From positions 3,000,001 through 3,032,000 of the forward strand of contig NZ_CP036280.1 of assembly GCF_007748075.1 (NCBI RefSeq): 32,000 nt of DNA, in the 5' to 3' direction. Shown in pieces: positions 1,854-29,654 of this stretch. The translations under genes and the position numbers were made by a program. Source of the stretch: Mucisphaera calidilacus. GTDB taxonomy: Bacteria > Planctomycetota > Phycisphaerae > Phycisphaerales > Phycisphaeraceae. Below the pieces are notes generated by a model. The model saw only the letters and a program-made list of their open reading frames with translations. It was not told the origin of the DNA and ran no database searches. The stretch's first letter is position 1. Every line of letters begins with the position of its first letter.

Positions 1854-2120
1854 ATGAAGAAGTCGAGATTTACCGAGGAGCAGATCGCGTTCGCACTCCG
1901 CCAGGCCGAGGGTGGTACGCCGGTGAAGGAGGTCTGCCGGAAGCTGGGTGTGCATGAGCAGACCTTCTACCGGTGGAAGAAGCAGTTCGCGGGTATGGGC
2001 GTGGCGGAGTTGCGCAAGCTCAAGCAGCTAGAGGAAGAGAACTCGAAGCTCAAGCGACTGGTGGCCGACCTGAGCCTGGATCGTCAGATCCTGCAGGACG
2101 CCCTCAAGGGAAAGCTCTAA
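1854..2120 (+). CDS. IS3-family transposase OrfA (HTH)
   Basis: MKKSRFTEEQIAFALRQAEGGTPVKEVCRKLGVHEQTFYRWKKQFAGMG...leucine-zipper-like LKQLEEENSKLKRLVADLSLD. Typical IS3/IS407-group OrfA. The track ORF starts at 1833, but the MKKSRF start is conserved in the second copy. Confidence 0.85.
   Translation: MKKSRFTEEQIAFALRQAEGGTPVKEVCRKLGVHEQTFYRWKKQFAGMGVAELRKLKQLEEENSKLKRLVADLSLDRQILQDALKGKL
2108..2114 (+). promoter_or_regulatory. Candidate -1 programmed ribosomal frameshift heptamer G_GGA_AAG (orfA->orfB)
   Basis: GGGAAAG sits in X_XXY_YYZ phase with the orfA frame (aaG GGA AAG), 2 codons before the orfA stop. A -1 slip reads GKALKPDHRRAMANR..., which is the orfB frame. Confidence 0.55.
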
Positions 2121-2673
2121 AGCCTGATCATCGCCGTGCGATGGCCAATCGAACGCAGCTCAAGTACGGCGTCAGCGAGCGTCGTGCGTGCAAGGTCCTG
2201 GGCCATGCAAGGGCGACGCAGCGTTACCAGAGCGTGGCGGATGATCAGGCAGCCCTTCGAAGCAGGATCAAGCAGATCGCTGGGGTCCATGTGACCTGGG
2301 GTTATCTTCGGATCTGGGTGAAGCTCCGACGCGAAGGCCATCATGTGAACAAGAAGCGTGTCTACCGTCTATACCGTGAAGAAGGCTTGGCGATGAGCCG
2401 GCGGCATAAGCCGCGTCGCCATCGCAGCAGTATGCACCGTCTCGAGCAGACCACCGCAACATGCGCGAACCAGAGTTGGTCGATGGACTTCATGGCCGAT
2501 GAGCTGTTCGACGGCCGTCGGTTCCGGCTGTTGACGTTAGTGGATGACTTTACGCGTGAGAGTCTGGCGATCGAGATCGGCCAGCGTCTGGGTGGTGTCG
2601 AGGTCGCATCGGTTCTAAGTGGTGTCGCCAGGGACCGAGGGGCTCTTCCAGAGAAGATCCGAGTCGACAATGG
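2108..2673 (+). pseudogene. IS3-family transposase OrfB, N-terminal part (interrupted at VDNG by the nested IS)
   Basis: Frame of track ORF 1973-2683: YGVSERRACKVLGHARATQRY...WSMDFMADELFDGRRFRLLTLVDDFTRESLAIEIG...IRVDNG (rve integrase core, first D). Homology stops at 2673. Confidence 0.8.
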
Positions 2674-2756
2674 AAAACTATGAAAGCCGGGTACACCGGG
2701 GGATGATCGGACACGTGTCCGACGTGTGCCCCGACCCTTTATCAGGAGACCCGGCG

Positions 2757-3802
2757 ATGCAACTACTGGCGATCGACCTCGGCAAATTCAAGAGTGTGGC
2801 GTGCCTCTATCGTGGTGATGATGACACGGAGTTCCGGACGATCGAGACCCGGCCACAGGTGATCCACGATCTGCTGACGGAGTGTGAGCCGGAGCGATTG
2901 GTGGTGGAGGTGGGGACAGTGACGGGCTGGGTGCACGACCTGGCGGCGGCTCTGGGGATCGAGGTGCAGGTCGCCAACCCGAATACCGAGGGCTGGCGTT
3001 GGCGTCGGGTCAAGCGTAAGACGGACCGAGACGACGCATTGAAGCTCGCTCGGCTATCGGCGGCAGGTCAACTGCCAACGGTGTGGATGCCCAAGCCGCG
3101 GGTTCGGCAGTGGCGTTCGCTCATCCACTACCGGCACGCATTGGTGAGCCGGCGGACGGCGATCCGCAACAACATCCGATCGGTGCTGGACGCTCAGGGA
3201 CTTGGTCTGGCGATGGGCAAGAAGGCGTGGACCGAGGAGGGCATGCTTCGTGTGGCGGAGATCGCCAAGCCGATTGTGTCGTGCTCGGCGGATGAGTTGT
3301 GGCGCGGTCAGCTCGATGTCGAGGCGACCTTGCTGGTACAGCTGCAATCGCAGCTCCAAGCGGTTGAAGACAGGCTTGATGCGCTCGCGGCGACCGACGC
3401 CCGCACGGCTCGGCTTCGCACGATCCCGGGCGTGGGCCCACGTCTGAGCGAGGCGGTGGTAGCTTGGGTGGACGACCCGGAGCGATTCCGCAATGCCAGG
3501 GCCGTGGGCTCGTACGTCGGCCTGGTTCCCCGGCGGCGGCAGTCGGGGACCTACGACCGTTCGGGGCGTGTGACCAAGCAGGGCCCGAGTCTCTTGCGGA
3601 AGCTACTGGTGGAGGTGGCTTGGATCATGCGGCAGCACAATCCGCACGCGGAGGCGTTGTTCAGGAAGCTGAGCAAGGGGAGCGGAGCCGGCACAAGCAG
3701 GCGATGGTGGCCTTGGCTCGGCGGGTGCTGACCTGGTGCTGGGCGATCTTGCGGGATGGCAGCACGTGGGACCCCGAACGGATCGGGTTGGAAGCGGCCT
3801 AG
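2757..3802 (+). pseudogene. IS110-family DEDD transposase, apparent frameshift near 3675-3695
   Basis: MQLLAIDLGK (D), VVEVGT (E), KRKTDRDDALKLARL (DD), then TIPGVGPRLSEAVVAWVDDPERFRNARAVGSYVGLVPRRRQSGTYDRSGRVTKQGPSLLRKLLVE (Transposase_20). The conserved C-terminus HKQAMVALARRVLTWCWAILRDG lies in another frame (track ORF 3464-3802). The frames switch around the GGGG run at 3677-3680. Confidence 0.8.
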
Positions 3803-8905: not shown

Positions 8906-10621
8906 CTAGCCACGCCTAAAGAGAACCTGACGCTGATAGGTGCTATCCGGCATCGATCGGTGCACCATGTCATCCAGAGGCCTTAACACCGCCCCGCTCA
9001 CACGATCAATCAACGTTGCGGGTTCACTGACTTCCAGACGCTCCGGATGTAGCTGATCACCGATCAACCAAGGCATTGAGTAGCTGCCTAAGACCAACGG
9101 GCCCCACTGAATCCGTACTCGATCAGAGTCATGGCTCCATGCGTCAAGTGTCCAGGCCATCCGCCAGGTGCACTCAATTCGAGATCCAGCCTTTGGCATA
9201 AACTCAAAAACAGACCACTGCCCAACGCGCTCCACGGGATGCGCAATCCCATCAATCCGGATAATCGGATCCTCATCATCAAGAACCGGCAATCGCCAGC
9301 AAATAGACTCAGATATCGATGAAGACAGAACCTCAACAACGAGTCGCCCCTCACGGGGGTAACCGGAATCGATCTTGAGCTGCAGACGCTCGCCACCAAG
9401 GCTCAGTTCCGCCTGAACACTCTCTAATAAACCAAGACTGATCTGCTTGTCAACGACACGCAACGCCGAAGCCGCCGCATAAGCAAGCCCATCCGCGCCA
9501 CGCATTGTGCAGCACCAGGGAGCCTCAGGCGTCGAGATCCCAACATGATGACCGCGTACACCCACACAGCTGTCGCACCCATAGCCCCCATTACACCGCT
9601 GAGCGTGCCCCAGCCCGCTGTACCAGATTCCATGTAAAGCCTTAAGATGGCGAAACTGCCCTTTGGCCTGCCAGAGATGCTCCGCGACCATCATCGCATC
9701 AACGATCGCGCACGGCTCTGTCCAACTCGGTCGTCCAAACCAGTTCTGATTCTGATAGAGAGCCGTCGAGCCATACTGCAAGTACAGATCGAAACGAGAT
9801 TCAACTGAATCAATCAGATCAGGGCGGTTAAGGATTCTGGCCGCTCGTAGCAAAGCCCGGCAGGCGGTCAGGGTGGCGTGTGTTTGCGCCTGAGCCTGAA
9901 CTACATCGATCAAGAGAAAACGCTCGGCCATCGCCGAGATCAAGTCACGAAGCTCTTCTGAAGCATAATGCCGATAGAACGAGGTCAGGCCGTCAAGAAA
10001 GATGAAGGCACAGCCCACGTCGGTGGAAATCCGCCAGCCGTCGATCGCCTGACTCAGATGCCCCGCATGCAGGCCGCTCCGATCACCCGAGCTTGGCGGA
10101 GTGAGTGGGTAGCTCGCGATCAGACCCTTAAGGCCTTGCGTCAGCCCATCGACCACACGCCTGCCACGAACCAGCCAACGCGGATCACCAGTCACGTCGT
10201 AAGCCGCGCCAAGACCGCGCAGTACCCAGCCATGCGATGACAGCTGCTGCTCGTCTGCCAGCCCGCTTGAAACGATCGCCCCAAAATAGCCCTGCCTATT
10301 GACATGGCGCTCCCAGCCCTTATCCAGCGTCTCCACCAGGGGGTGGGCCATGCCGCTCGTAGCCGAAAGCCGCGAAGCTGCCAGCAACGCACGCCCTTCA
10401 TAATCTCCCGGCCACTCATAACCGGGCGTGTGCGTAAAAATCTCCTCAGCGGTGTAAGGCGACATCAATAACCGCTCGTAACTCAACAAAACACGCTTGG
10501 CAAGGTTTCCCGAGGCCGTAACTGAGAGAACTCGACTCTTACGACGTCGAGGGGGCACCTGCACGGATTGGCTGACAACCACGGCAGGTGTATCTGGAAT
10601 GGTGCGTGTGCCTGAATTCAT
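8906..10621 (-). CDS. Six-hairpin glycosidase-like protein, GH127/DUF1680-like (possible beta-L-arabinofuranosidase-type)
   Basis: (alpha/alpha)6-like motifs (YEGRALLAAS, QLSSHGWVLRGLGAAYDVTGDPRWL). Cys-rich putative active/Zn site (CNGGYGCDSC...PWCCTMRG) reminiscent of the GH127 CC motif. Lies 26 nt upstream of the GH78 gene on the same strand. Family assignment is tentative, and the start (10621 vs 10462) is uncertain. Confidence 0.5.
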   Translation of the reverse strand: MNSGTRTIPDTPAVVVSQSVQVPPRRRKSRVLSVTASGNLAKRVLLSYERLLMSPYTAEEIFTHTPGYEWPGDYEGRALLAASRLSATSGMAHPLVETLDKGWERHVNRQGYFGAIVSSGLADEQQLSSHGWVLRGLGAAYDVTGDPRWLVRGRRVVDGLTQGLKGLIASYPLTPPSSGDRSGLHAGHLSQAIDGWRISTDVGCAFIFLDGLTSFYRHYASEELRDLISAMAERFLLIDVVQAQAQTHATLTACRALLRAARILNRPDLIDSVESRFDLYLQYGSTALYQNQNWFGRPSWTEPCAIVDAMMVAEHLWQAKGQFRHLKALHGIWYSGLGHAQRCNGGYGCDSCVGVRGHHVGISTPEAPWCCTMRGADGLAYAAASALRVVDKQISLGLLESVQAELSLGGERLQLKIDSGYPREGRLVVEVLSSSISESICWRLPVLDDEDPIIRIDGIAHPVERVGQWSVFEFMPKAGSRIECTWRMAWTLDAWSHDSDRVRIQWGPLVLGSYSMPWLIGDQLHPERLEVSEPATLIDRVSGAVLRPLDDMVHRSMPDSTYQRQVLFRRG

Positions 10622-16048: not shown

Positions 16049-17806
16049 ATGAAGGCCTGCTTAATCCTCACCTACCTGCTGTTATTGATCATGAGTGATA
16101 CAGCGCCTGCGGCCGTAACTGAGTCCATGGTCACCGTGATCAATTCTACAGACCATGGTGCCATCGGTGATGGGAATAATGATGACACGGCCGCTATTGC
16201 GAGCATGCTTGCCACACTAGAGGTAATCGAAGGCCCGGCTAGGCTCCAGTTCGAATCGAACCGCGTCTACCGAATAGCCAAGCCTGTGATTGACGGCTTT
16301 GCGATTAAGCTTATGGGGCGAGTCGATGTCACAATTGATGGCGGTCAATCCACTTTCCTGCTCGCTCCGAACGTCCGATTCCTGCATGCAATCGACTGCA
16401 CGCATCTCAGCGTCCAAGGCATCAGAATCGACTACGACCCGCTTCCATTCGTCGAAGCCGACATTATCGACGCGCAGCCCGGACAACCCATCATCACCGT
16501 TCGTTCGCAGGAAGGCTTCGATCTTCGTCGCTCGGGCGGACCTACGAGAGACCCTGATGAACAGGCTTACTTCGGTATGTCCTGGCATCAGGGCCCCCAC
16601 AGCCTCATCGGCCATCACCAGATGATTGAAGAGGTCGAGCACCTTCCCGACAACACTGCGAGAATCCGGCTGGCACATCCCTATGAACCAGTAAACACTG
16701 GCGTAGACCACATACCCACTATCACACTACCCGTCCCTGGCATTGCGCATTTACAGGGCCCCGGTCACGTCTTCAAGATCTACAAATGCCATTCCGCTGA
16801 CCTCGAAGATATCGAAGTGTGGTCCGCGCCCTGGTTTGCCTTTGGCATCTTCGGAAACACCGGTGATCTCACCTTCCGCCACACACACGTACGCCCCAAA
16901 CCCGGATCTAGCCGGACCACCTCAACCTGGCGCGATGCCTTCCACGTCAAGAACAACGCTGCCTCTCTTCTGTTTGAGGACATCCACGCCCAGGGATGCA
17001 ACGACGACACCTTCAACATCTCGTCTCACGGCTCACGAGTCTGGAAGCAGATCGACGAGCAGACGTTCGATCTCGTACAGGTCTATCCCCTCGAAATCAC
17101 CCCACTCAACCCGGGTGATCAGGTCGCTTTCTATGACCCCACCAACCACCGCTTCCTCGCCAACGCCCGGCTTGTGAGCGTCCAAGGCGAGCAAGCTCCC
17201 GAGTTCCGTGACGGCCAACCCTACTCGCCCATCCTGCGTGTCAGAGTCGATCGACCAGTCCCCAGCGTCGTTCCCAATCAAACGCTGTTCTGGAGCGTCA
17301 CCTACTCCAATCCACAAACCACCCTACGAAGGGTCAGGCTTTACAACAGCGCTCGTCTCCGCTCACCAGTGACGATCGAAGATAGCCATATCGAAGCACT
17401 CTTGTGGATCACAGGATGGTCCGATGGCACCGAGCTTCCGGTGCCGACCGACATCGTGATCCGAGACTCACTGCTCCGTTACGGCCGTGGCAACCCAACC
17501 CACGCCATCATCGCCACGCCTCTAGAAGCACAAGGTGATACCGATTCACGCCACCTGCCTGGAACGCCACCTGTCACGAACGTTGTCTTCGAGAGGAATC
17601 GCATCTTCGGCGGCTTCTACATCGGACAGGCGACAGGCATCCGACTGATCGAGAATGAGTTTATCACCGAAGGACACCCCATCGAGCTGTTCGATATCAG
17701 GGCTGCACTGCTCCACGGCAACACCGTCGATGGTGAAGAACTTAAACAGAAGCACCTGACACTGAGACTAGCCAATGACACCGATGACGTCCGGATCACG
17801 CCTTGA
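16049..17806 (+). CDS. Secreted right-handed beta-helix protein (Pectate_lyase_3 / GH28-related fold)
   Basis: Signal peptide (LILTYLLLLIMSDTAPAAV). Hallmark N-terminal motif TDHGAIGDGNNDDTAAIASML. Repetitive beta-helix-like body. Confidence 0.65.
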   Translation: MKACLILTYLLLLIMSDTAPAAVTESMVTVINSTDHGAIGDGNNDDTAAIASMLATLEVIEGPARLQFESNRVYRIAKPVIDGFAIKLMGRVDVTIDGGQSTFLLAPNVRFLHAIDCTHLSVQGIRIDYDPLPFVEADIIDAQPGQPIITVRSQEGFDLRRSGGPTRDPDEQAYFGMSWHQGPHSLIGHHQMIEEVEHLPDNTARIRLAHPYEPVNTGVDHIPTITLPVPGIAHLQGPGHVFKIYKCHSADLEDIEVWSAPWFAFGIFGNTGDLTFRHTHVRPKPGSSRTTSTWRDAFHVKNNAASLLFEDIHAQGCNDDTFNISSHGSRVWKQIDEQTFDLVQVYPLEITPLNPGDQVAFYDPTNHRFLANARLVSVQGEQAPEFRDGQPYSPILRVRVDRPVPSVVPNQTLFWSVTYSNPQTTLRRVRLYNSARLRSPVTIEDSHIEALLWITGWSDGTELPVPTDIVIRDSLLRYGRGNPTHAIIATPLEAQGDTDSRHLPGTPPVTNVVFERNRIFGGFYIGQATGIRLIENEFITEGHPIELFDIRAALLHGNTVDGEELKQKHLTLRLANDTDDVRITP

Positions 17807-22915: not shown

Positions 22916-24085
22916 TCACGCCCATTGCTGCGTGTGCAGATTGAGCCAAGGCACCAACTCGACGTCCGATCGCTTTTGGCCAGTTTCGCCGCCGTAGGCG
23001 ACATACGCCTTGCATGGCCGAACCTGCTCAATGACTTCACGGACCCGCCGGACGCCTTCGAGCAAACCGGAGTTCGCGGTCTGCGCCGCCTTGGCCTCGA
23101 CAAGAGACAATCGATCAGCGTGCTCAATGATCAGGTCGGCTTCGACGCCGTTTTGATCGCGGTAGTGGTAAAGACCGCCTGTCTCGCCAGCGTTGATGCG
23201 ATGCTTGGCGATTTCGGACACCACCCAACTCTCAAAGAGTGCTCCGCGCAATGGATGGCTGCGAAGCTGCTCAGTGGTACGGATGCCTAGCAGTCGGCAA
23301 GCCAGACCGGTGTCGTAGAAATGCAGCTTCGGCATCTTCACCAAGCGTTTGCGGATGTTGCTACTGAACGATGGCAGGCGGAACGCGATGAAGCTGGCTT
23401 CAAGGACGCTGAACCATGCCTTGGCAGTGGGCTGAGCGATGCCGCAGTCGTTGCTGAGCCGTGAGAAGTTGAGCAGTTGCGATGTGCGGCCGGCACAGAG
23501 TTCGACGAACCGCTGGAAGGTTGTCAGGTCGCCAACGTTGGTGATCAGTCGCACATCCCGTTCGATGTAGGTGGCGATGTAGGATGCGAGCCACTCTCCT
23601 GCGTCGAGTTGCTGGTCGAAGATGCGGGGATAGCCGCCGGTCAGGATCGACTCGTCAAGCGTCTCGGGAAAGCGTGGAAAGCGGATGGCTTCACTCCGCG
23701 CAAGCGGCAGCAGATGCAGCACTGCGGTTCGGCCAGCGAGGGACTGATTCACAGATTCCAGCAACGCCAGATTCTGAGAACCCGTCAGCACCCACCGGCC
23801 GGGTTGCGGGTGCTCGTCGATAATGCTTTGGATATATGACGTCAGTTCGGGCACGCGCTGGATTTCGTCCAGGATCACACCGTCGTCGAACTGGGCCAGG
23901 AACGCACGCGGGTCGTCCTGGGCAAAGCTGCGGAGATCCGGCGCTTCGAGATTGGCGTAGGCGTACTTCGGGAAGATCGCCCGGCAGAGGGTGGACTTTC
24001 CGCTCTGGCGGGGGCCCGTCAGCGTGACCGAGGGGAACTGGCCAGCCAGCTTTCGCAGTCGGGATGTCAGATCACGGTCGATCAT
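22916..24085 (-). CDS. AAA+ ATPase, AAA_14/DUF4143 family
   Basis: Walker A LTGPRQSGKSTL, Walker B GVILDEIQRVPEL, and a DUF4143-like C-terminal half (YHYRDQNGVEADLIIE...LVEAKA). Confidence 0.85.
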   Translation of the reverse strand: MIDRDLTSRLRKLAGQFPSVTLTGPRQSGKSTLCRAIFPKYAYANLEAPDLRSFAQDDPRAFLAQFDDGVILDEIQRVPELTSYIQSIIDEHPQPGRWVLTGSQNLALLESVNQSLAGRTAVLHLLPLARSEAIRFPRFPETLDESILTGGYPRIFDQQLDAGEWLASYIATYIERDVRLITNVGDLTTFQRFVELCAGRTSQLLNFSRLSNDCGIAQPTAKAWFSVLEASFIAFRLPSFSSNIRKRLVKMPKLHFYDTGLACRLLGIRTTEQLRSHPLRGALFESWVVSEIAKHRINAGETGGLYHYRDQNGVEADLIIEHADRLSLVEAKAAQTANSGLLEGVRRVREVIEQVRPCKAYVAYGGETGQKRSDVELVPWLNLHTQQWA

Positions 24086-24147
24086 GTCAGAACAGCGTAG
24101 CTTCTGATATAGGACAATTCAAGATTGAATCTTCATTTGTCCTATGG

Positions 24148-24276
24148 GCGGGTGGTACAAGGATTCGTACCAGCCCCGTGGGCTGGTGTCGTAAGCTGCG
24201 ACTTGATAGATGGATGGAACTGTGGTCGCCTGGCCTTCCAAGCTGAATGTTGTGAGTTCGAGTCTCATCACCCGCT
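24148..24276 (+). tRNA. tRNA-Gly(UCC)-like sequence, non-canonical: a fragment/att scar or an expanded tRNA-like RNA
   Basis: The 3' part is canonical: anticodon loop CTTCCAA (24235-24241), T-arm GTGAG-TTCGAGT-CTCAT (24252-24268), acceptor 3' strand CACCCGC plus discriminator T (24269-24276). A perfect acceptor 5' strand GCGGGTG sits at 24148-24154, 129 nt away rather than ~75. The D-arm is absent and the anticodon stem is weak. No encoded CCA. Confidence 0.35.
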
Positions 24277-24531: not shown

Positions 24532-24833
24532 TGGCTGAACTCGAAAGTTTCCGTACTCATTTTAGCGTAGCGAGGGACGCCTCTGGACGGAAGGCTTCGG
24601 GTGATGGCGGGGGGTGATGGCCGGTCTGATTGTGAAGAACACTGGCTGTACCTTGTTTCCGCTGGACGTTGCGTGGATTGCGATGGCCCGCGGGGGCAGC
24701 GGGGCGGGTGGTGAGGCCGGCTCGCCGTGAACCTGTTAAAAAACAGGTGTGTGGGGCGTTGTTTGGCGGGCGCACGTGCGGGTTGTGCGCGTGGAAGGCT
24801 GGGACTGTTTTGGCGCGTGACGATCGACACAGA

Positions 24834-27548
24834 GTGCGTTTTTCCAGCAGCCTGAGCGGCCGTATTCTGCTGCTGGGGATCCTGCCGACGGTGGTGATTT
24901 TGACGGCGCTCATTCTGGCGCTGGCGGTGAGTGGTGTTCGTCGTCTGCACGAGCAGTCGCTAGAGGCGTTGGAGCTTCTGGCGAACGAGGTGGCGACGCA
25001 GATCAGCCACACGAACGAGCACGCGGGGCTGGGCACGATCATGATGGCGCAGGCGCAGCAGGCGGCGTTGTTCGGCCAGCGTGAGACGTCGGTGGAGTTC
25101 GCGCGTGAGGTGCTGGACCGCTTCCCGCAGCTCAATGGGGTGTCGTTTGTTTATGAGCCGGACGCGGACGGTCAGGACGCGTTGTGGGTGGGCGGTGCCG
25201 GGCCGTTGGCGGCGGGGATGGATGACCGCGGGCGGTTTCTGCCTTACTGGTCGCGTGGGGAAAACGGGTCGCTGGTGCTGGCCGGGGTGAGCGATCCGGA
25301 TGCGCGGCCGGGGTATGCGGAGGCGAAGCGCTGGTACGAGCAAGAGGGCGAGATTCGTGCGGTGATGGGCGAGCCGGTGCGTCTGGGCGACAAAATGCTG
25401 ATCGAGCTGACGTACCCGATCATCGTAGACGGCCGGTTTGTGGGCGCGGCGACGATCGATCGTTCGTTGACGACGATTCGTGCGTTGCTGGAGCGGATCA
25501 AGACGGACGCGTCGGTGGACATCTTTGTGATCAGTGGCGAGCATCGTTTTGTGGCTGCGACGACGGCGGAGCGTGAGTTATTGAAGACGCAGCCGGTGGA
25601 CGAGACGGCCTATCACAAGCTGTTCTCGCGCGAGGCGCTGATCGGCGGCATCGAGGGGATGTACGATCCGTACGACGGCGAGGCGTATTACTTCGCGACG
25701 TCGCAGGTGCGTGCGGGCGGTTGGACGCTGGTGGTGCGTGAGTCGCGGTCGGCGATCGTCGACCCGATCCGCGTGGACTTCACGGTGATCGTGTCGACGG
25801 TGGTGGTGGCGTTGCTGGCGGTGCTGTCGCTTTCGATGTGGATCCTTCGGCACACGAGCACGCGGATTCGGCGTGCCGTGGAGGTGGCGGATCAGCTCGC
25901 GAGGCGGGACCTGTCGGGCGATCTGGACCTGCGGTCGACATCGCGTGACGAGGTGACGCAGCTGGGCGAGAGTTTTCAGAGCCTGGTCGCGACGATGCGG
26001 GAGACGGAGGCGTTCGTGGGCGCGGTGGCGGAGGGTGATTTCAGCCGGACGTTCGAGCAGCGTTCGGAGGCGGACAACCTGGCGCGGTCGATCAACGCGA
26101 TGAGCCGGATGCGTCAGGAGGCGGAGGCGGCGCTGCGCGAGGCGCGTCTGGAGGCGGAGCAGGCGAACGTGGCGAAGAGCGTCTTCCTGGCCAACATGAG
26201 TCACGAGCTGCGTACGCCTCTGAACGGCGTGCTCGGCTACGTACAGATCCTGCTGCGTGACCGTTCGCTCAACGAGCAGCAGCGGCGGAGTCTCGACGCG
26301 ATCATGAACAGCGGCGAGCACCTGCTGATGCTGATCAACGACATTCTTGACCTGTCGAAGATCGAGGCGGGGCGTCTGGAGGTGGACCTGGCGGCGTGCG
26401 ACCTGCACAAGCTGCTCCAGTCGGTCGAGGACGTGCTGGCGCATCGGGCGAAGTCGAAGTCGCTGGCCTTCGAGGTGGACGTGGCGGCGGAGGTGCCGCG
26501 TGGGATCCGCACGGACGCGACGAAGCTCAAGCAGGTGCTGGTGAATCTGGCGGGCAACGCGGTGAAGTTCACGGAGGCGGGGAGCGTGACGATCTCGGTG
26601 GGTGAGACCGAGGACAAGCGTTTGCGGTTCTCGGTGCGTGACACGGGCATCGGGATGTCGGAGGAGGAGTTGGCGGGGATCTTTGACGCGTTCAAGCAGG
26701 CGGCGGCGGGCAAGGACGCGGGCGGGACGGGGCTGGGTCTGACGATCAGCCGTCGTCTTGTGCTGGCTCTGGGTGGCGTGTTGTCGGTGGAGAGTCGGCC
26801 GGGCGCGGGCAGCACGTTCTCGTTCACGCATCCCCTGGAGGAGGTGGACGAAGACGCGTTGAGTCTGGAGCAGACGGCGTCGCTCGCGGGTCATGCCTCG
26901 CTGTCGCTGCCTGAGGTTCAGCGGCGGACGGTGCTGGTGGTAGATGATCGCGAGGCGAACCGTGAGATCCTGGATCATGCGTTGCGTGGCGTCGGGTTTG
27001 CGACGGAGATCGCGGAGAACGGCCGGGAGGCGTTGGACGTGCTGGAGAAGACGCCGGTGGACGCGGTGCTGATGGACGTTCGGATGCCGGTGATGAACGG
27101 GATCGAGGCGACGGAGCGTCTGCGTGCCGACGAGCGATTCAGGGATCTGCCGGTGATCGCGGTGTCGGCGAGCGTCTTCCCGAATCAGCAGAAGAAATTT
27201 CGGGAGGCAGGGTGCAGCGATTTCCTGGCCAAGCCGGTGCGGCTCAATGAGTTGTTCGAGAAGCTCGCGCATCATCTGGGGCTGACGTATACGACGGAGG
27301 ATGCGGCGGAAGAGCCGATGCGCGCGACGACCAGCGAACCGTTGTCGGCGGAGCGAGCGGGCGAGGTGGTGGGGCCGCTTCGCGAGGCGTTGCGGGTTCG
27401 GAGCTTTACGGCGCTCAACGCACTGGCCGAGCGTCTTGCCGCGGACGAGGCGACGGCTTCGGTGGCCGAGCGGATCCGGTCGGCGACGCGTGGCTTTGAT
27501 TTTGATGCACTGGACAGGCTTGCGGACGAGCTTGAGAGAGGTGACTGA
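24834..27548 (+). CDS. Hybrid sensor histidine kinase/response regulator (TM-Cache-like-TM-HAMP-HisKA-HATPase_c-REC)
   Basis: FLANMSHELRTPLNGVLGY (H-box), N/G boxes (LVNLAGNAVKFT, DTGIGM, GGTGLGLTISRRL), REC (VLVVDDREANREIL...VLMDVRMPVMNG...FLAKPV). Two TM helices flank a ~280-aa extracytoplasmic region. Start uncertain: GTG 24834 gives MRFSSSLSGRILLLGILP, while the track ORF begins at TTG 24669. Confidence 0.85.
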   Translation: MRFSSSLSGRILLLGILPTVVILTALILALAVSGVRRLHEQSLEALELLANEVATQISHTNEHAGLGTIMMAQAQQAALFGQRETSVEFAREVLDRFPQLNGVSFVYEPDADGQDALWVGGAGPLAAGMDDRGRFLPYWSRGENGSLVLAGVSDPDARPGYAEAKRWYEQEGEIRAVMGEPVRLGDKMLIELTYPIIVDGRFVGAATIDRSLTTIRALLERIKTDASVDIFVISGEHRFVAATTAERELLKTQPVDETAYHKLFSREALIGGIEGMYDPYDGEAYYFATSQVRAGGWTLVVRESRSAIVDPIRVDFTVIVSTVVVALLAVLSLSMWILRHTSTRIRRAVEVADQLARRDLSGDLDLRSTSRDEVTQLGESFQSLVATMRETEAFVGAVAEGDFSRTFEQRSEADNLARSINAMSRMRQEAEAALREARLEAEQANVAKSVFLANMSHELRTPLNGVLGYVQILLRDRSLNEQQRRSLDAIMNSGEHLLMLINDILDLSKIEAGRLEVDLAACDLHKLLQSVEDVLAHRAKSKSLAFEVDVAAEVPRGIRTDATKLKQVLVNLAGNAVKFTEAGSVTISVGETEDKRLRFSVRDTGIGMSEEELAGIFDAFKQAAAGKDAGGTGLGLTISRRLVLALGGVLSVESRPGAGSTFSFTHPLEEVDEDALSLEQTASLAGHASLSLPEVQRRTVLVVDDREANREILDHALRGVGFATEIAENGREALDVLEKTPVDAVLMDVRMPVMNGIEATERLRADERFRDLPVIAVSASVFPNQQKKFREAGCSDFLAKPVRLNELFEKLAHHLGLTYTTEDAAEEPMRATTSEPLSAERAGEVVGPLREALRVRSFTALNALAERLAADEATASVAERIRSATRGFDFDALDRLADELERGD

Positions 27549-27554
27549 CCGGCC

Positions 27555-29654
27555 ATGGATCAGCCTGCCCCCGAACCCGAAGCGATCACGAGCAACGACC
27601 GCGTTCTGCTCGTGGACGACAACCCCGTCAACCTTGACGTGCTCGCGCAGTCGCTGGAGGCGCGCGGGCTTGAGTTGCTGATTGCCCGGAGCGGCGAGGA
27701 GGCGCTGGTGGTGGCGGCGTCGGCGAAGCCGGCGGTGATCCTGCTGGACATCAACATGCCGGGGATCGGCGGGTTCGAGACGTGTCGGCGGCTCAAGGCG
27801 GACACGAGCACGGCGGACGCGGTGGTGGTGTTCCTGTCGGCGCGAGACGCGGTGGAGGATCGCGTGCAGGGGCTGGAGCTTGGGGCGGCGGACTACATCG
27901 CCAAGCCGTTTCAGGTCGAGGAGGTTCAGGCCCGGGTGGCGCGGCAGATCGCGTTGTACCACGAGCGCCGGGAGCTCAAGACGCGAGCGGCGGACAAGGA
28001 CCCGGCCAGCGAGGAGCGTTTCCGGGCGATCGACCCCGCGTCGCTGCGGGCGATGATCGAGGCGGGTGAGTCGGACCGGTTCGAGCTGAAGTCGACGCTC
28101 CGGTGGAACCTCAAGTCGGACAAGGCGGGCAAGGAGATCGAGGACGCCTGGCTCAAGACGGTGGTGGCGTTTCTCAACACGGACGGCGGCGTGCTGGTGG
28201 TGGGTGTCGACGACGACGGCAACGCGCTGGGGATCGAGGCGGATCGTTTCGATAACGCGGACCGGTACCTGCTGCACGTGAACAACCTGATCCGTCAGCA
28301 CGTCGGCGCCGCGTACATGCACTTCATCCGATTCGACCTCGTGCCGATCGACGACAAGCAGGTGCTGGCGATGCGTGTGCTGCCCGCTGCCGAGCCGGCG
28401 TTCCTGCGGCGGAACAACGACGAGCTGTTCTTCATCCGGGTGGGTCCGGGCAGCCGGAAACTGACGGCGAGTGAGATGGTGGCGTACATCCAGAACCGCC
28501 GCGAGGATCAGACGCGTGAGGTGGTGCCCGCTGAGCCCACGCGAGTGGAAACGGCGCCCGAGTCGCAGGAGCGTGCGCCGGACCGGATCCTGCTGGTAGA
28601 CGACAACACGACGAACCTGCAGGTGCTGTTCCAGACGCTGAGCGATCAGGACTACGAGTTGCTGGTGGCGCGGAGCGGCGAGGAGGCGATCGAGGTGGCG
28701 ACGGCGGGTTCGCCGACGCTGATCCTGCTGGACATCATGATGCCGCCCGGGATTGATGGTTACGAGACATGCAAGCGGCTGCGGCAGAAGCCCGAGACGG
28801 CGGACGTGGCGGTGATCTTCATGTCGGCGTTGCAGGACACCGATGCGCGGGTGCGCGGCTTTGAGGTGGGCGCGGTCGATTACATCACCAAGCCGTTCCA
28901 GGCGGACGAGGTGATCGCGCGCGTGCGCACGCACCTAACGATCCAGAAGCTGCAGCGGAGCCTGAGCGCCGCGAACAGCGAGCTTCAGCGTTTCAATGCC
29001 GATCTTGAGGACAGGGTGGCGGAGCGGAGTGCGCAGCTGGTCAAGAGCCGGGACGCGATCATCTTCGGTCTGGCGAAGCTGGCGGAGTCGCGTGACGACG
29101 ACACGGGGCGGCACCTGGAGCGCATCTGCCGGTACGTGCGGATTCTCTCGGAGGAGTTGGCGCGGGAGGACCCGGGCATCGAGACGTCGTGGGTGGAGTC
29201 GGTGGCGGTGACGGCGGCGCTGCACGACATCGGCAAGGTGGCGATCCCGGACGCGATCCTGCTCAAGCCGGGGCGGCTGTCGGACGAGGAGCGGAGCAGG
29301 ATGCAGGAGCACGCGAAGATCGGCAGCGGCACGCTGAGCGCGATACGGGAGCGTTGGGGGAGTAGTCAGTTCCTGACGACGGCGATCGAGATTGCGCATC
29401 ACCATCACGAGCGTTGGGACGGCAGCGGGTATCCGGACGGGCTGGCGGGCGAGGCGATCCCCTTGCCGGCGCGGATCGTGGCGGTGGCGGACGTGTACGA
29501 CGCGTTGCGAAGCAAGCGTGTCTACAAGCCGGCGATGACCGACGACGAGGCGGCGCAGGAGATCATCAACGCGTCGTGCACGCAGTTCGACCCGCGGGTG
29601 GTCGAGGCGTTCGGGCGTGTGCGTGACGAGTTTCGTCGCGTGCTTGAGGGTTGA
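27555..29654 (+). CDS. Response regulator with REC - AlbA_2 (Schlafen-type) - REC - HD-GYP architecture
   Basis: REC1 (LLVDDNPVNL...ILLDINMPG...YIAKPF). AlbA_2-like region (GESDRFELKSTLRWNL...VVAFLNTDGGVLVVGVDDDGNALGIE). REC2 (LLVDDNTTNL...ILLDIMMPPG...YITKPF). HD-GYP (LHDIGKVAIPD...HHHERWDGSGYPDGL). Starts 7 nt after the kinase stop. Confidence 0.85.
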   Translation: MDQPAPEPEAITSNDRVLLVDDNPVNLDVLAQSLEARGLELLIARSGEEALVVAASAKPAVILLDINMPGIGGFETCRRLKADTSTADAVVVFLSARDAVEDRVQGLELGAADYIAKPFQVEEVQARVARQIALYHERRELKTRAADKDPASEERFRAIDPASLRAMIEAGESDRFELKSTLRWNLKSDKAGKEIEDAWLKTVVAFLNTDGGVLVVGVDDDGNALGIEADRFDNADRYLLHVNNLIRQHVGAAYMHFIRFDLVPIDDKQVLAMRVLPAAEPAFLRRNNDELFFIRVGPGSRKLTASEMVAYIQNRREDQTREVVPAEPTRVETAPESQERAPDRILLVDDNTTNLQVLFQTLSDQDYELLVARSGEEAIEVATAGSPTLILLDIMMPPGIDGYETCKRLRQKPETADVAVIFMSALQDTDARVRGFEVGAVDYITKPFQADEVIARVRTHLTIQKLQRSLSAANSELQRFNADLEDRVAERSAQLVKSRDAIIFGLAKLAESRDDDTGRHLERICRYVRILSEELAREDPGIETSWVESVAVTAALHDIGKVAIPDAILLKPGRLSDEERSRMQEHAKIGSGTLSAIRERWGSSQFLTTAIEIAHHHHERWDGSGYPDGLAGEAIPLPARIVAVADVYDALRSKRVYKPAMTDDEAAQEIINASCTQFDPRVVEAFGRVRDEFRRVLEG

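What the first reader, a model, noticed from the sequence alone, without database searches (positions are those of the whole stretch)
27555..29654. Response regulator with an AlbA_2/Schlafen-type domain between two receiver domains, ending in HD-GYP
Seen in sequence:
- One 699-aa ORF carries two complete receiver domains. Both keep the acidic pocket, the phospho-acceptor Asp (LLDINMPG, LLDIMMPPG) and the conserved Lys (YIAKPF, YITKPF).
- The receivers are separated by ~160 aa (about 28017-28499) with the AlbA_2 signature ESDRFELKS...AFLNTDGGVLVVGVDDDG.
- A coiled-coil linker and an HD-GYP domain follow.
- The two REC segments are also similar at DNA level (gagttgctg...cggagcggcgaggaggcg), which suggests an internal duplication around the insert.
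- The gene starts 7 nt after a hybrid kinase that itself ends in a REC domain.
Established knowledge: REC-HD-GYP (RpfG-type) proteins are cyclic-dinucleotide phosphodiesterases. AlbA_2 is a putative nucleic-acid-binding module found in Schlafen proteins and in many defence or regulatory contexts.
Inference: this could couple phosphorelay input and a nucleic-acid or nucleotide cue to cyclic-dinucleotide turnover. I do not know this combination as a characterised system.
Basis: partly seen in the sequence, partly recalled or inferred. Interest (0 to 1): 0.7.

Follow-up and report, generated by a model that had tools for sequence, protein, structure and literature searches.

The report
Schlafen-type and HD-GYP response regulators fused
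This gene joins two neighbouring signalling proteins into one: a phosphorylation-controlled Schlafen-type (probable RNA-cutting) module and a phosphorylation-controlled c-di-GMP-degrading enzyme. It points to a widespread, unstudied family in which Schlafen domains are outputs of ordinary bacterial environmental sensing rather than of phage defence.

Summary
ORF 27555-29654 (699 aa, Mucisphaera calidilacus, Planctomycetota) is REC - SLFN_AlbA_2 - REC - HD-GYP. All four domains score above Pfam thresholds and all key residues are intact.

The "insert between duplicated receivers" reading does not hold. In a related Phycisphaerae genome, residues 15-321 match a whole 329-aa REC-AlbA_2 gene. Residues 334-696 match the whole next gene, a 371-aa REC-HD-GYP. 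Both lie downstream of a hybrid kinase and upstream of a REC-PP2C gene. The protein is therefore a fusion of adjacent operon genes, and each receiver is closer to its positional counterpart elsewhere than to its partner.

This AlbA_2 subtype occurs in about 550 species genomes. It appears as stand-alone REC-AlbA_2 regulators, as membrane receptors (Cache-like domain, TM helix, AlbA_2), and fused to Ser/Thr kinase, PP2C or HD-GYP modules. It therefore behaves as a signalling output, not a sensor.

It keeps the Schlafen nuclease motif Ex4ExK (141 of 142 relatives) and has the Schlafen fold. Most likely, receiver phosphorylation licenses a Schlafen-type nuclease in parallel with c-di-GMP hydrolysis. 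The nuclease activity is inferred, not shown. I found no publication describing it.

The parts
24669..27548 (+). Hybrid sensor histidine kinase: TM, dCache_1 (aa 247-356), TM, HAMP (391-444), HisKA (503-568), HATPase_c (616-724), REC (755-866), then a roughly 90-aa tail without any His. The true start codon is probably downstream of the TTG at 24669.
   Evidence: Pfam. Translation: no His in the last ~90 aa, so no Hpt. A hybrid kinase sits immediately upstream in relatives.
27555..29654 (+). Fused response regulator, 699 aa: REC1 - AlbA_2 - REC2 - HD-GYP.
   Evidence: Identical to the NCBI protein 'response regulator [Mucisphaera calidilacus]' (P0001).
27600..27944 (+). REC1 (aa 16-130): D21, D22, phospho-acceptor D65, S95, K117.
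   Evidence: It is the positional orthologue of the REC in REC-AlbA_2 proteins.
28068..28463 (+). SLFN_AlbA_2 domain (Pfam aa 172-303; the folded unit spans about aa 160-322).
   Evidence: Pfam E=2e-20. AF2 model pLDDT 86.4. The top 24 Foldseek PDB hits are all AlbA_2/Schlafen proteins: SAMD9, DIP2311, SLFN5/11/12/13/14.
28068..28091 (+). ESDRFELK, the Schlafen nuclease motif Ex4(E/D)xK (E172, E177, K179).
   Evidence: Motif as defined in PMC13056530. Kept in 141 of 142 relatives. In the profile match to SLFN14, query positions 13-73 align to chain residues 206-262. If the first residues align without gaps (that alignment was not printed), E177 falls on E211, the residue mutated in PDB 9uie.
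28212..28214 (+). D220 in GVDDDG, the invariant Asp of the subfamily (A1 column D61) and the candidate third acidic active-site residue.
   Evidence: Invariant in A1 and A2. The xDxG pattern is kept across 142 relatives. Equivalence to the SLFN catalytic Asp is inferred.
28518..28553 (+). Fusion junction (aa 322-333, within the Pro/Glu-rich linker aa 318-343).
   Evidence: Query aa 15-321 aligns to the whole REC-AlbA_2 gene and aa 334-696 to the whole next gene of L007. Low pLDDT at the C-terminal end of the model.
28587..28928 (+). REC2 (aa 345-458): D349, D350, phospho-acceptor D393, S424, K446. It carries the REC-HD-GYP-specific 'MPPGIDG' motif.
28929..29075 (+). Linker between REC2 and HD-GYP (aa 459-507). 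Its helical, coiled-coil nature is read from the sequence and was not modelled.
   Evidence: Sequence. Conserved in the stand-alone REC-HD-GYP.
29076..29600 (+). HD-GYP phosphodiesterase domain (aa 508-682): H557 D558, H586, H617 H618, G625 Y626 P627, D646. D515 lies at the position of PmGH E185.
   Evidence: Pfam HD_5 E=2.6e-36. Full-length alignment to PA4781 (4r8z, E=9.5e-52), PmGH (4mcw) and V-cGAP3 (5z7c).

Best explanation
The gene is a fusion of two adjacent response-regulator genes from a conserved branched two-component operon: hybrid kinase, then REC-AlbA_2, REC-HD-GYP and REC-PP2C.

Proposed mechanism:
1. The upstream dCache/HAMP hybrid kinase senses an extracytoplasmic ligand and phosphorylates both receivers.
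2. REC2~P switches on the HD-GYP domain, which hydrolyses c-di-GMP, as in RpfG and PA4781-type regulators.
3. REC1~P controls the AlbA_2 domain. This is a single-lobe Schlafen-type nuclease with an intact Ex4ExK site. I propose that phosphorylation-driven dimerisation brings two AlbA_2 lobes together into the two-lobed Schlafen architecture, which licenses RNA (probably tRNA) binding and cleavage.
4. One signal would therefore lower c-di-GMP and remodel or arrest translation at the same time.

Shown here: the domain identities, the intact motifs, the fusion origin, the kinase linkage, and AlbA_2 acting as the sole output in many relatives.

Inferred: direct His-to-Asp transfer to both receivers, nuclease activity, activation by dimerisation, and the RNA target.
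For: Fusion origin:
- two adjacent genes in L007 match the two halves end to end, at 56% and 61% identity.
- the same operon appears in L001, L002 and L005, with REC-SpoIIE alongside.
- the receivers show positional orthology.

AlbA_2 as an output:
- 119 of the 240 retrieved proteins have the plain REC-AlbA2 architecture (about 315-330 aa).
- about 550 species genomes carry this subtype.
- membrane proteins with a TM helix, a periplasmic domain (sub-threshold dCache_1 in 4 of 8 scanned), a second TM helix, then AlbA_2 as the only cytoplasmic domain. In 34 of 34 cases a TM helix lies about 40 aa before AlbA_2.
- 377 clusters at 50% identity with E<=1e-30, mostly with AlbA_2 at the extreme C-terminus.

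Kinase linkage:
- a hybrid kinase lies directly upstream in every fused variant examined, and in 10 of 31 stand-alone loci.

Nuclease competence:
- Ex4ExK and the invariant Asp are kept in 141 of 142 relatives.
- The fold matches SAMD9 and SLFN5/11/12/13/14.
- The profile match covers the active-site region of SLFN14 and SLFN11.
- An A-F-L-N 'Schlafen box' followed by GG is present.

Precedent:
- Bacterial PF04326 domains are tRNases (PMC13056530).
- Single-lobe prokaryotic SLFN domains must dimerise to rebuild the two-lobed nuclease (bioRxiv 10.64898/2026.05.29.728809).
- The closest solved receivers are PleD and OmpR/PhoB-type. That OmpR/PhoB-type receivers dimerise on phosphorylation is established knowledge.

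HD-GYP: all motif residues are present.
Against: - No enzymatic data exist for any member of this subfamily.
- The Ex4ExK motif is conserved across nearly all prokaryotic AlbA_2 domains, so its presence does not prove activity. Some eukaryotic Schlafens mainly bind nucleic acid.
- Oligomeric state could not be modelled with these tools.
- The kinase is a hybrid (it ends in a REC) but has no detectable Hpt, so the phosphotransfer route to REC1 and REC2 is uncertain.
- In REC-AlbA_2-Pkinase proteins a single receiver precedes both AlbA_2 and the kinase. This leaves room for AlbA_2 acting as a relay or scaffold.
- The window lacks the REC-PP2C gene found in the relatives' operons.
Confidence: 0.5

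Rival explanations
1. AlbA_2 is a non-catalytic nucleic-acid-binding output. REC1-AlbA_2 would then act as a phosphorylation-dependent DNA-binding transcription factor or RNA-binding regulator, or would tether the phosphodiesterase to the nucleoid or to RNA. It would be fused to an ordinary RpfG-type enzyme.
For: The best structural hit is the SAMD9 AlbA_2 domain crystallised with DNA (7ksp), and SLFN5 N-domain entries are described as DNA/RNA-binding. JGI annotators call relatives 'DNA-binding response OmpR family regulator' or 'predicted HTH transcriptional regulator'; these are automatic labels only. The same distribution evidence fits any intrinsic output activity. Membrane-anchored DNA-binding receptors exist (ToxR, CadC; established knowledge).
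Against: Near-universal retention of the three acidic residues and the Lys of the nuclease site in 141 of 142 relatives is not needed for binding alone. SAMD9 and the bacterial PF04326 proteins tested so far proved to be tRNases. No HTH is present.
Confidence: 0.25
2. AlbA_2 is an input or regulatory domain that senses a nucleic acid or nucleotide and, together with two receivers, gates HD-GYP activity within one integrated protein.
For: AlbA_2 lies between signalling domains in the three fused architectures: HD-GYP, PP2C and Ser/Thr kinase. In REC-AlbA_2-Pkinase only one receiver is present.
Against: The two halves are separate genes in close relatives. They are joined here by a short Pro/Glu-rich linker whose only modelled part (aa 322-342) has pLDDT about 55-57. 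In most family members AlbA_2 is the only domain besides the sensor or receiver, so there is nothing for it to regulate.
Confidence: 0.12
3. This is a phage-defence (abortive-infection) module. A two-component system would detect infection and release a Schlafen tRNase, like the pSlfn systems or Detocs.
For: Bacterial Schlafens tested so far are anti-phage effectors, and 69.6% lie near defence genes. An AAA_14-DUF4143 ATPase matching the PADLOC candidate PDC-S01 (E=1.7e-104) lies about 0.6 kb upstream of the kinase on the other strand.
Against: The target's PADLOC matches are confined to the REC and HD regions, apart from one marginal pAgo hit on the AlbA_2 region (E=0.0095). No match to a Detocs component was listed. 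The conserved partners are housekeeping-type signalling genes: dCache/PAS kinases, REC-HD-GYP and REC-PP2C. Neighbourhoods in L001, L003, L005, L007, L013, L089 and L091 show no defence genes. Periplasmic Cache sensors point to small-molecule sensing. The authors themselves note that 30% of pSlfn genes may be non-immune.
Confidence: 0.08
4. The fusion is an assembly or frameshift artefact, or a decaying pseudogene, with no functional meaning.
For: Only three clusters in 5.8 billion proteins have the full architecture.
Against: The three are only 55-60% identical to each other, come from independent assemblies and keep the same architecture and intact motifs. Parallel fusions of REC-AlbA_2 to REC-PP2C exist. 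The source is a 3.49-Mb contig.
Confidence: 0.03

Closest known systems
RpfG / PA4781-type REC-HD-GYP response regulators (c-di-GMP phosphodiesterases)
   Same: Residues 334-696 align end to end with stand-alone REC-HD-GYP proteins (61% identity). The HD-GYP domain aligns over its full length with PA4781, PmGH and V-cGAP3, with the HD, H, HH, D and GYP residues intact.
   Different: It carries a complete second response regulator (REC-AlbA_2) fused at the N-terminus. Substrate preference (c-di-GMP or cGAMP) is untested.
Prokaryotic Schlafen nucleases (pSlfn: RorSlfn5, EcoSlfn7; PMC13056530) and SLFN-pAgo (RzAgo; bioRxiv 10.64898/2026.05.29.728809)
   Same: It has the PF04326 domain, the Ex4(E/D)xK motif, the Schlafen box and the single-lobe fold. 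It follows the same modular logic of a sensor module joined to a Schlafen effector.
   Different: The controlling module is a phospho-receiver (or, in relatives, a Cache-type membrane sensor), not a phage-protein or guide-RNA sensor. The genomic context is signalling operons, not defence islands. Receiver fusions are not mentioned in the main text of the pSlfn paper, and its supplementary table of 55 architectures could not be read.
Mammalian Schlafens and SAMD9 (SLFN11/12/13/14, SAMD9 AlbA_2)
   Same: Homologous fold and an equivalent active-site motif.
   Different: Mammalian proteins have two lobes in one chain plus helicase or other domains. Here there is one lobe, which would need oligomerisation.
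Branched multi-regulator two-component pathways and two-receiver regulators (for example PleD REC-REC-GGDEF)
   Same: One kinase is linked to several regulators with near-identical receivers, and one chain holds two receivers. The best PDB receiver match is PleD.
   Different: In PleD the second receiver is an adaptor for one output. Here each receiver has all its phospho-acceptor residues and its own output domain.
RNA-targeting response regulators (REC-ANTAR, e.g. AmiR/EutV) and Detocs (kinase plus REC-effector defence system)
   Same: Conceptually, a receiver gates an RNA-directed output (ANTAR) or a toxic effector output (Detocs).
   Different: There is no sequence relationship. ANTAR binds terminators and does not cleave. 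No Detocs component appeared among the PADLOC matches, and Detocs kinases are cytosolic phage sensors (from my own knowledge).

Membership tests
Response regulator receiver (PF00072), two copies | Profile match above the curated threshold | tested here: met
   182.5 bits against a cutoff of 30.2, in two stretches
Response regulator receiver (PF00072), two copies | Acidic pocket, phospho-acceptor Asp, Ser/Thr and Lys all present | tested here: met
   REC1: D21, D22, D65, S95, K117. REC2: D349, D350, D393, S424, K446.
Response regulator receiver (PF00072), two copies | Cognate histidine kinase and actual phosphotransfer | not testable with these tools
   An adjacent hybrid kinase lies 6 nt upstream, and the linkage is conserved in relatives. 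No Hpt was found. Phosphotransfer itself needs biochemistry.
HD-GYP phosphodiesterase (PF13487 HD_5) | Profile match above threshold and full-length alignment to solved HD-GYP enzymes | tested here: met
   125.4 bits against 27.2. 4r8z E=9.5e-52, 4mcw E=1.3e-35, 5z7c E=1.7e-35.
HD-GYP phosphodiesterase (PF13487 HD_5) | Metal-ligand residues (HD, H, HH, D) and the GYP motif | tested here: met
   H557 D558, H586, H617 H618, D646, G625 Y626 P627. An Asp (D515) sits at the position of PmGH E185.
HD-GYP phosphodiesterase (PF13487 HD_5) | Hydrolysis of c-di-GMP or cGAMP | not testable with these tools
   Requires an enzyme assay
Schlafen / AlbA_2 nuclease domain (PF04326) | Profile match above threshold | tested here: met
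   73.9 bits against 25.3, profile positions 1-117 of 118
Schlafen / AlbA_2 nuclease domain (PF04326) | Ex4(E/D)xK catalytic motif, plus Schlafen box and conserved Asp | tested here: met
   E172-x4-E177-x-K179, A205-F-L-N208-x-x-G-G, D220. The motif is conserved in 141 of 142 relatives. Motif definition.
Schlafen / AlbA_2 nuclease domain (PF04326) | Schlafen C-lobe fold | tested here: met
   AF2 pLDDT 86.4. Foldseek ranks 1-24 are all AlbA_2/Schlafen/SAMD9 chains, probability 0.96-1.00.
Schlafen / AlbA_2 nuclease domain (PF04326) | RNA (tRNA) endonuclease activity | not testable with these tools
   No member of this receiver-linked subfamily has been assayed, and no paper was found.
pSlfn anti-phage defence systems | Location in defence islands or fusion to a phage sensor | tested here: not met
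   Neighbours are signalling and metabolic genes in seven loci. The only candidate defence gene is PDC-S01 in the window. The fused module is a receiver.
Detocs (defensive two-component system) | DtcA/DtcB/DtcC profile matches | tested here: inconclusive
   No Detocs component appeared among the matches from PADLOC-DB v2.0.0. I did not verify that this release contains Detocs models. The kinase has a periplasmic dCache sensor.

The most novel reading that the evidence does not exclude
A widespread, unrecognised class of Schlafen-type RNases serves as the output of ordinary environmental signal transduction. It appears in receiver-coupled form and as Cache-type membrane receptors, in Planctomycetota, Desulfobacterota, Verrucomicrobiota, Gammaproteobacteria and other phyla. 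Signal-licensed tRNA or RNA cleavage would then be a physiological, non-immune response in bacteria. In this protein that response is physically coupled to c-di-GMP degradation.
Probability: 0.35. Interest if true: 0.8.

Novelty: new variant of a known kind. Interest (0 to 1): 0.62.

Why it matters
Schlafen nucleases have only just been shown to act in bacteria, and only as phage-defence effectors. The authors left open what the roughly 30% outside defence islands do. This locus gives a concrete, testable answer for one conserved subfamily. Its Schlafen domain is wired to canonical sensors: histidine kinase plus receiver, or a Cache-like membrane receptor. It is also genetically linked, and here physically fused, to c-di-GMP and PP2C signalling outputs. 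If the domain is active, it would add regulated RNA cleavage to the known outputs of two-component systems. It would also link second-messenger turnover to translational control. The fusion itself is strong guilt-by-association evidence that the two outputs act in one pathway.

Tried and rejected
- Recent internal duplication of the receiver. Rejected on positional orthology and the REC2-specific 'MPPGIDG' signature.
- An Hpt domain in the kinase tail. None: no Pfam hit and no His in the last ~90 aa.
- Defence-system membership. PADLOC hits on the target fall on the REC and HD regions, apart from one marginal pAgo hit on the AlbA_2 region (E=0.0095).
- Checking whether the pSlfn paper lists receiver fusions among its 55 architectures. 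The supplementary tables are not held for either version, and the main text has no 'CheY', 'receiver', 'Cache' or 'two-component'.
- Literature searches for AlbA_2 or Schlafen together with response regulator, receiver or two-component, and for 'divergent AAA domain'. Nothing relevant came up.
- A tRNA-like stretch at about 24149-24276. ARAGORN and Rfam found nothing.
- My first home-made HD-GYP profile was contaminated by the C-terminal receiver of REC-HD-GYP-REC proteins. I rebuilt it.
- I did not use the second structure job on the full-length protein. The tool returns no inter-domain error or coordinates, so it could not test domain packing or dimerisation.
Full report
**1. Observation**

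ORF 27555-29654 (+) encodes 699 aa. Pfam finds two Response_reg domains (aa ~16-130 and 345-458, combined E=2.7e-54). It also finds SLFN_AlbA_2 at aa 172-303 (E=2e-20, 73.9 bits against a cutoff of 25.3) and HD_5 (HD-GYP) at aa 508-682 (E=2.6e-36). The protein is identical to the NCBI entry 'response regulator [Mucisphaera calidilacus]', on a 3.49-Mb contig. The organism belongs to Planctomycetota, Phycisphaerae. UniRef labels the protein an RpfG-type c-di-GMP phosphodiesterase.

The upstream ORF 24669-27548 is a hybrid kinase: dCache_1-HAMP-HisKA-HATPase_c-REC. Its stop codon ends 6 nt before the ATG. The two receivers are 53% identical. They share in-register DNA similarity, the best stretch being 82% over 90 nt.

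**2. What it is: a fusion of two neighbouring genes**

A search of 5.8 billion protein clusters found only three with the full architecture (P0001-P0003, 55-60% identical to each other). The N-terminal REC-AlbA_2 unit recurs with other C-terminal partners:
- REC-AlbA_2-REC-SpoIIE/PP2C.
- REC-AlbA_2-Ser/Thr kinase.
- Above all, stand-alone REC-AlbA_2 proteins of about 315-330 aa. In one search, 119 of 240 retrieved proteins have this architecture.

In a Phycisphaerae MAG (L007) the gene order is hybrid kinase, REC-AlbA_2 (329 aa), REC-HD-GYP (371 aa), REC-SpoIIE. Target residues 15-321 align with the whole first regulator (56% identity). Residues 334-696 align with the whole second regulator (61% identity). 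That leaves a 12-residue junction inside a Pro/Glu-rich linker.

The two orthologous fused genes also sit between a kinase and a REC-SpoIIE gene. A Desulfobacteraceae MAG has the same four genes in permuted order. The target is therefore a Rosetta-stone fusion within a branched operon that has several regulators.

The 'internal duplication' idea fails. REC1 is 66-70% identical to REC1 of other REC-AlbA_2 proteins, and REC2 is 60-66% identical to the receivers of HD-GYP and PP2C partners. REC1 and REC2 are only 54% identical to each other. REC2 also shares the extra proline in 'MPPGIDG' with the stand-alone REC-HD-GYP. All receivers of this operon belong to one close clade, which fits their sharing one kinase.

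**3. The AlbA_2 domain is a signalling output**

A scan of one genome per species with an alignment of this AlbA_2 subtype confirmed 550 loci. They span Phycisphaerae, Desulfobacterales, Methylococcales and other Gammaproteobacteria, Verrucomicrobiota, Krumholzibacteriota, Calditrichia, Cloacimonadota, Acidobacteriota, Kiritimatiellae, Lentisphaeria, Fibrobacteraceae and Bacteroidota. One is the cultured Desulfosarcina alkanivorans.

Of the 80 loci retrieved:
- 41 encode REC-AlbA_2.
- 38 encode proteins of about 480-560 aa with AlbA_2 at the extreme C-terminus.

The longer proteins have an N-terminal TM helix, a periplasmic domain of about 300 aa, and a second TM helix about 40 aa before AlbA_2. 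In 34 of 34 cases that TM helix is present. The periplasmic part gives sub-threshold dCache_1 matches in 4 of 8 representatives (E from 6e-8 to 4e-5).

An exhaustive search of cluster representatives gives 377 clusters at E<=1e-30. Most of the best 150 have this C-terminal architecture. In these receptors AlbA_2 is the only cytoplasmic domain, so it must carry an intrinsic output activity.

A hybrid kinase lies directly upstream of every fused variant examined. It also lies directly upstream in 10 of 31 stand-alone loci with enough flank, and nearby in four more. The rest are orphan regulators.

**4. What the AlbA_2 domain probably does**

An AF2 model of aa 136-342 is confident (pLDDT 86.4). 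Its 24 best PDB matches are all AlbA_2/Schlafen proteins: SAMD9, DIP2311, a RecG-related N-domain, and SLFN5/11/12/13/14.

Two recent papers establish PF04326 as a nuclease. Bacterial Schlafens cleave tRNA through an Ex4(E/D)xK site (PMC13056530). Single-lobe prokaryotic Schlafen domains become active when they dimerise and rebuild the two-lobed mammalian architecture (bioRxiv 10.64898/2026.05.29.728809).

The target has E172-x4-E177-x-K179, an A-F-L-N box followed by GG, and an invariant Asp (D220). The motif is kept in 141 of 142 receiver-linked relatives. A profile of the subfamily matches the active-site segment of SLFN14 and SLFN11. By the reported coordinates, and assuming no gap in the first residues (that alignment was not printed), E177 falls on SLFN14 E211, the residue mutated in PDB 9uie.

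The receivers resemble PleD and OmpR/PhoB-type receivers. That OmpR/PhoB-type receivers dimerise on phosphorylation is established knowledge. My proposal is that REC1 phosphorylation drives pairing of AlbA_2 lobes and so licenses RNA cleavage. This step is inferred. A non-catalytic DNA- or RNA-binding role is the main rival.

**5. The HD-GYP half**

It aligns over its full length with PA4781 (E=9.5e-52), PmGH and V-cGAP3. It keeps the HD, H, HH and D ligands and the GYP motif. It is most likely an active RpfG-type c-di-GMP phosphodiesterase gated by REC2.

**6. Phosphorelay caveat**

The kinase ends in a receiver, but its last ~90 residues contain no His and there is no Hpt match. Direct His-to-Asp transfer to REC1 and REC2, with the kinase's own receiver acting as a sink or regulator, is the simplest route but is unproven.

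**7. Defence?**

The target's PADLOC matches fall on the REC and HD regions, apart from one marginal pAgo hit on the AlbA_2 region (E=0.0095). Neighbourhoods in seven loci contain signalling, transport and metabolic genes. The one candidate defence gene is an AAA_14-DUF4143 ATPase (PDC-S01) upstream in the window. A defence role is unlikely. This subfamily is a good candidate for the 'non-immune' 30% noted by the pSlfn authors.

**8. Novelty**

No paper describing receiver- or Cache-linked Schlafen domains was found. The main text of the pSlfn survey does not mention them, and its supplementary architecture table could not be read. The components are known kinds. New here are the wiring (a Schlafen domain as a two-component or one-component output) and this particular fusion. 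I rate it a new variant of a known kind, with interest 0.62.

Noticed in passing
L053:6876-8483 (Desulfosarcina alkanivorans), L037:6912-8453; representatives P0241-P0385: A large family of proteins of about 480-560 aa: TM helix, periplasmic domain of about 300 aa (sub-threshold dCache_1), TM helix, then the same AlbA_2 subtype as the sole cytoplasmic domain. This looks like a one-component membrane receptor with a Schlafen output. No description was found in the literature searches.
   Followed up: partly
P0014, P0024, P0101, P0120 (L089:7001-8914); P0004-P0008 (L091:7001-9094): Parallel fusions exist: REC-AlbA_2 with a Ser/Thr protein kinase, and REC-AlbA_2-REC-SpoIIE/PP2C. Each lies directly downstream of a PAS-type hybrid histidine kinase. 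In the kinase fusion a single receiver precedes both AlbA_2 and the kinase.
   Followed up: partly
L005:5445-7004; P0011-P0119: Many proteins of about 510 aa are REC-HD-GYP-REC, with a second, divergent receiver (about 26% identity) after the HD-GYP domain. In Desulfobacterales operons they are the HD-GYP partner of REC-AlbA_2.
   Followed up: no
window 22916-24085 (-): An AAA_14-DUF4143 ATPase matches the PADLOC candidate single-gene defence system PDC-S01 (E=1.7e-104). It lies about 0.6 kb upstream of the kinase and is divergently oriented.
   Followed up: partly
window 1-24500: There is a composition break. G+C is about 0.55-0.58 with strongly negative GC skew from about 4 to 22 kb, against 0.66-0.68 from 25 kb onward. 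The low-G+C block carries IS3-like and IS110-family transposases (1973-3731), an MFS transporter, a rhamnosidase, an AraC regulator, glycoside hydrolases with dockerin matches, and araB/araD/araA. This is possibly an acquired carbohydrate-use island next to the signalling operon.
   Followed up: partly
window 24109-24276: A perfect 9-bp-stem hairpin (ataggacaa...ttgtcctat, 24109-24145) lies after the DUF4143 gene. Next to it, at about 24149-24276, is a stretch with tRNA-like ends: 5' gcgggtg, a T-arm gtgagttcgagtctcat, 3' cacccgc, and a CTTCCAA loop. ARAGORN and Rfam call nothing, so it may be a degraded or interrupted tRNA-Gly remnant or att site.
   Followed up: partly
window 27279-27545: After its receiver, the hybrid kinase carries a helical tail of about 90 aa, rich in Ala, Glu and Arg. 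It has no His and no Pfam match, so it is not an Hpt. Its function is unknown.
   Followed up: no
window 8906-10621 (-), 16049-17806 (+): Two long ORFs (571 and 585 aa) inside the carbohydrate island have no Pfam match at E<=1e-4.
   Followed up: no
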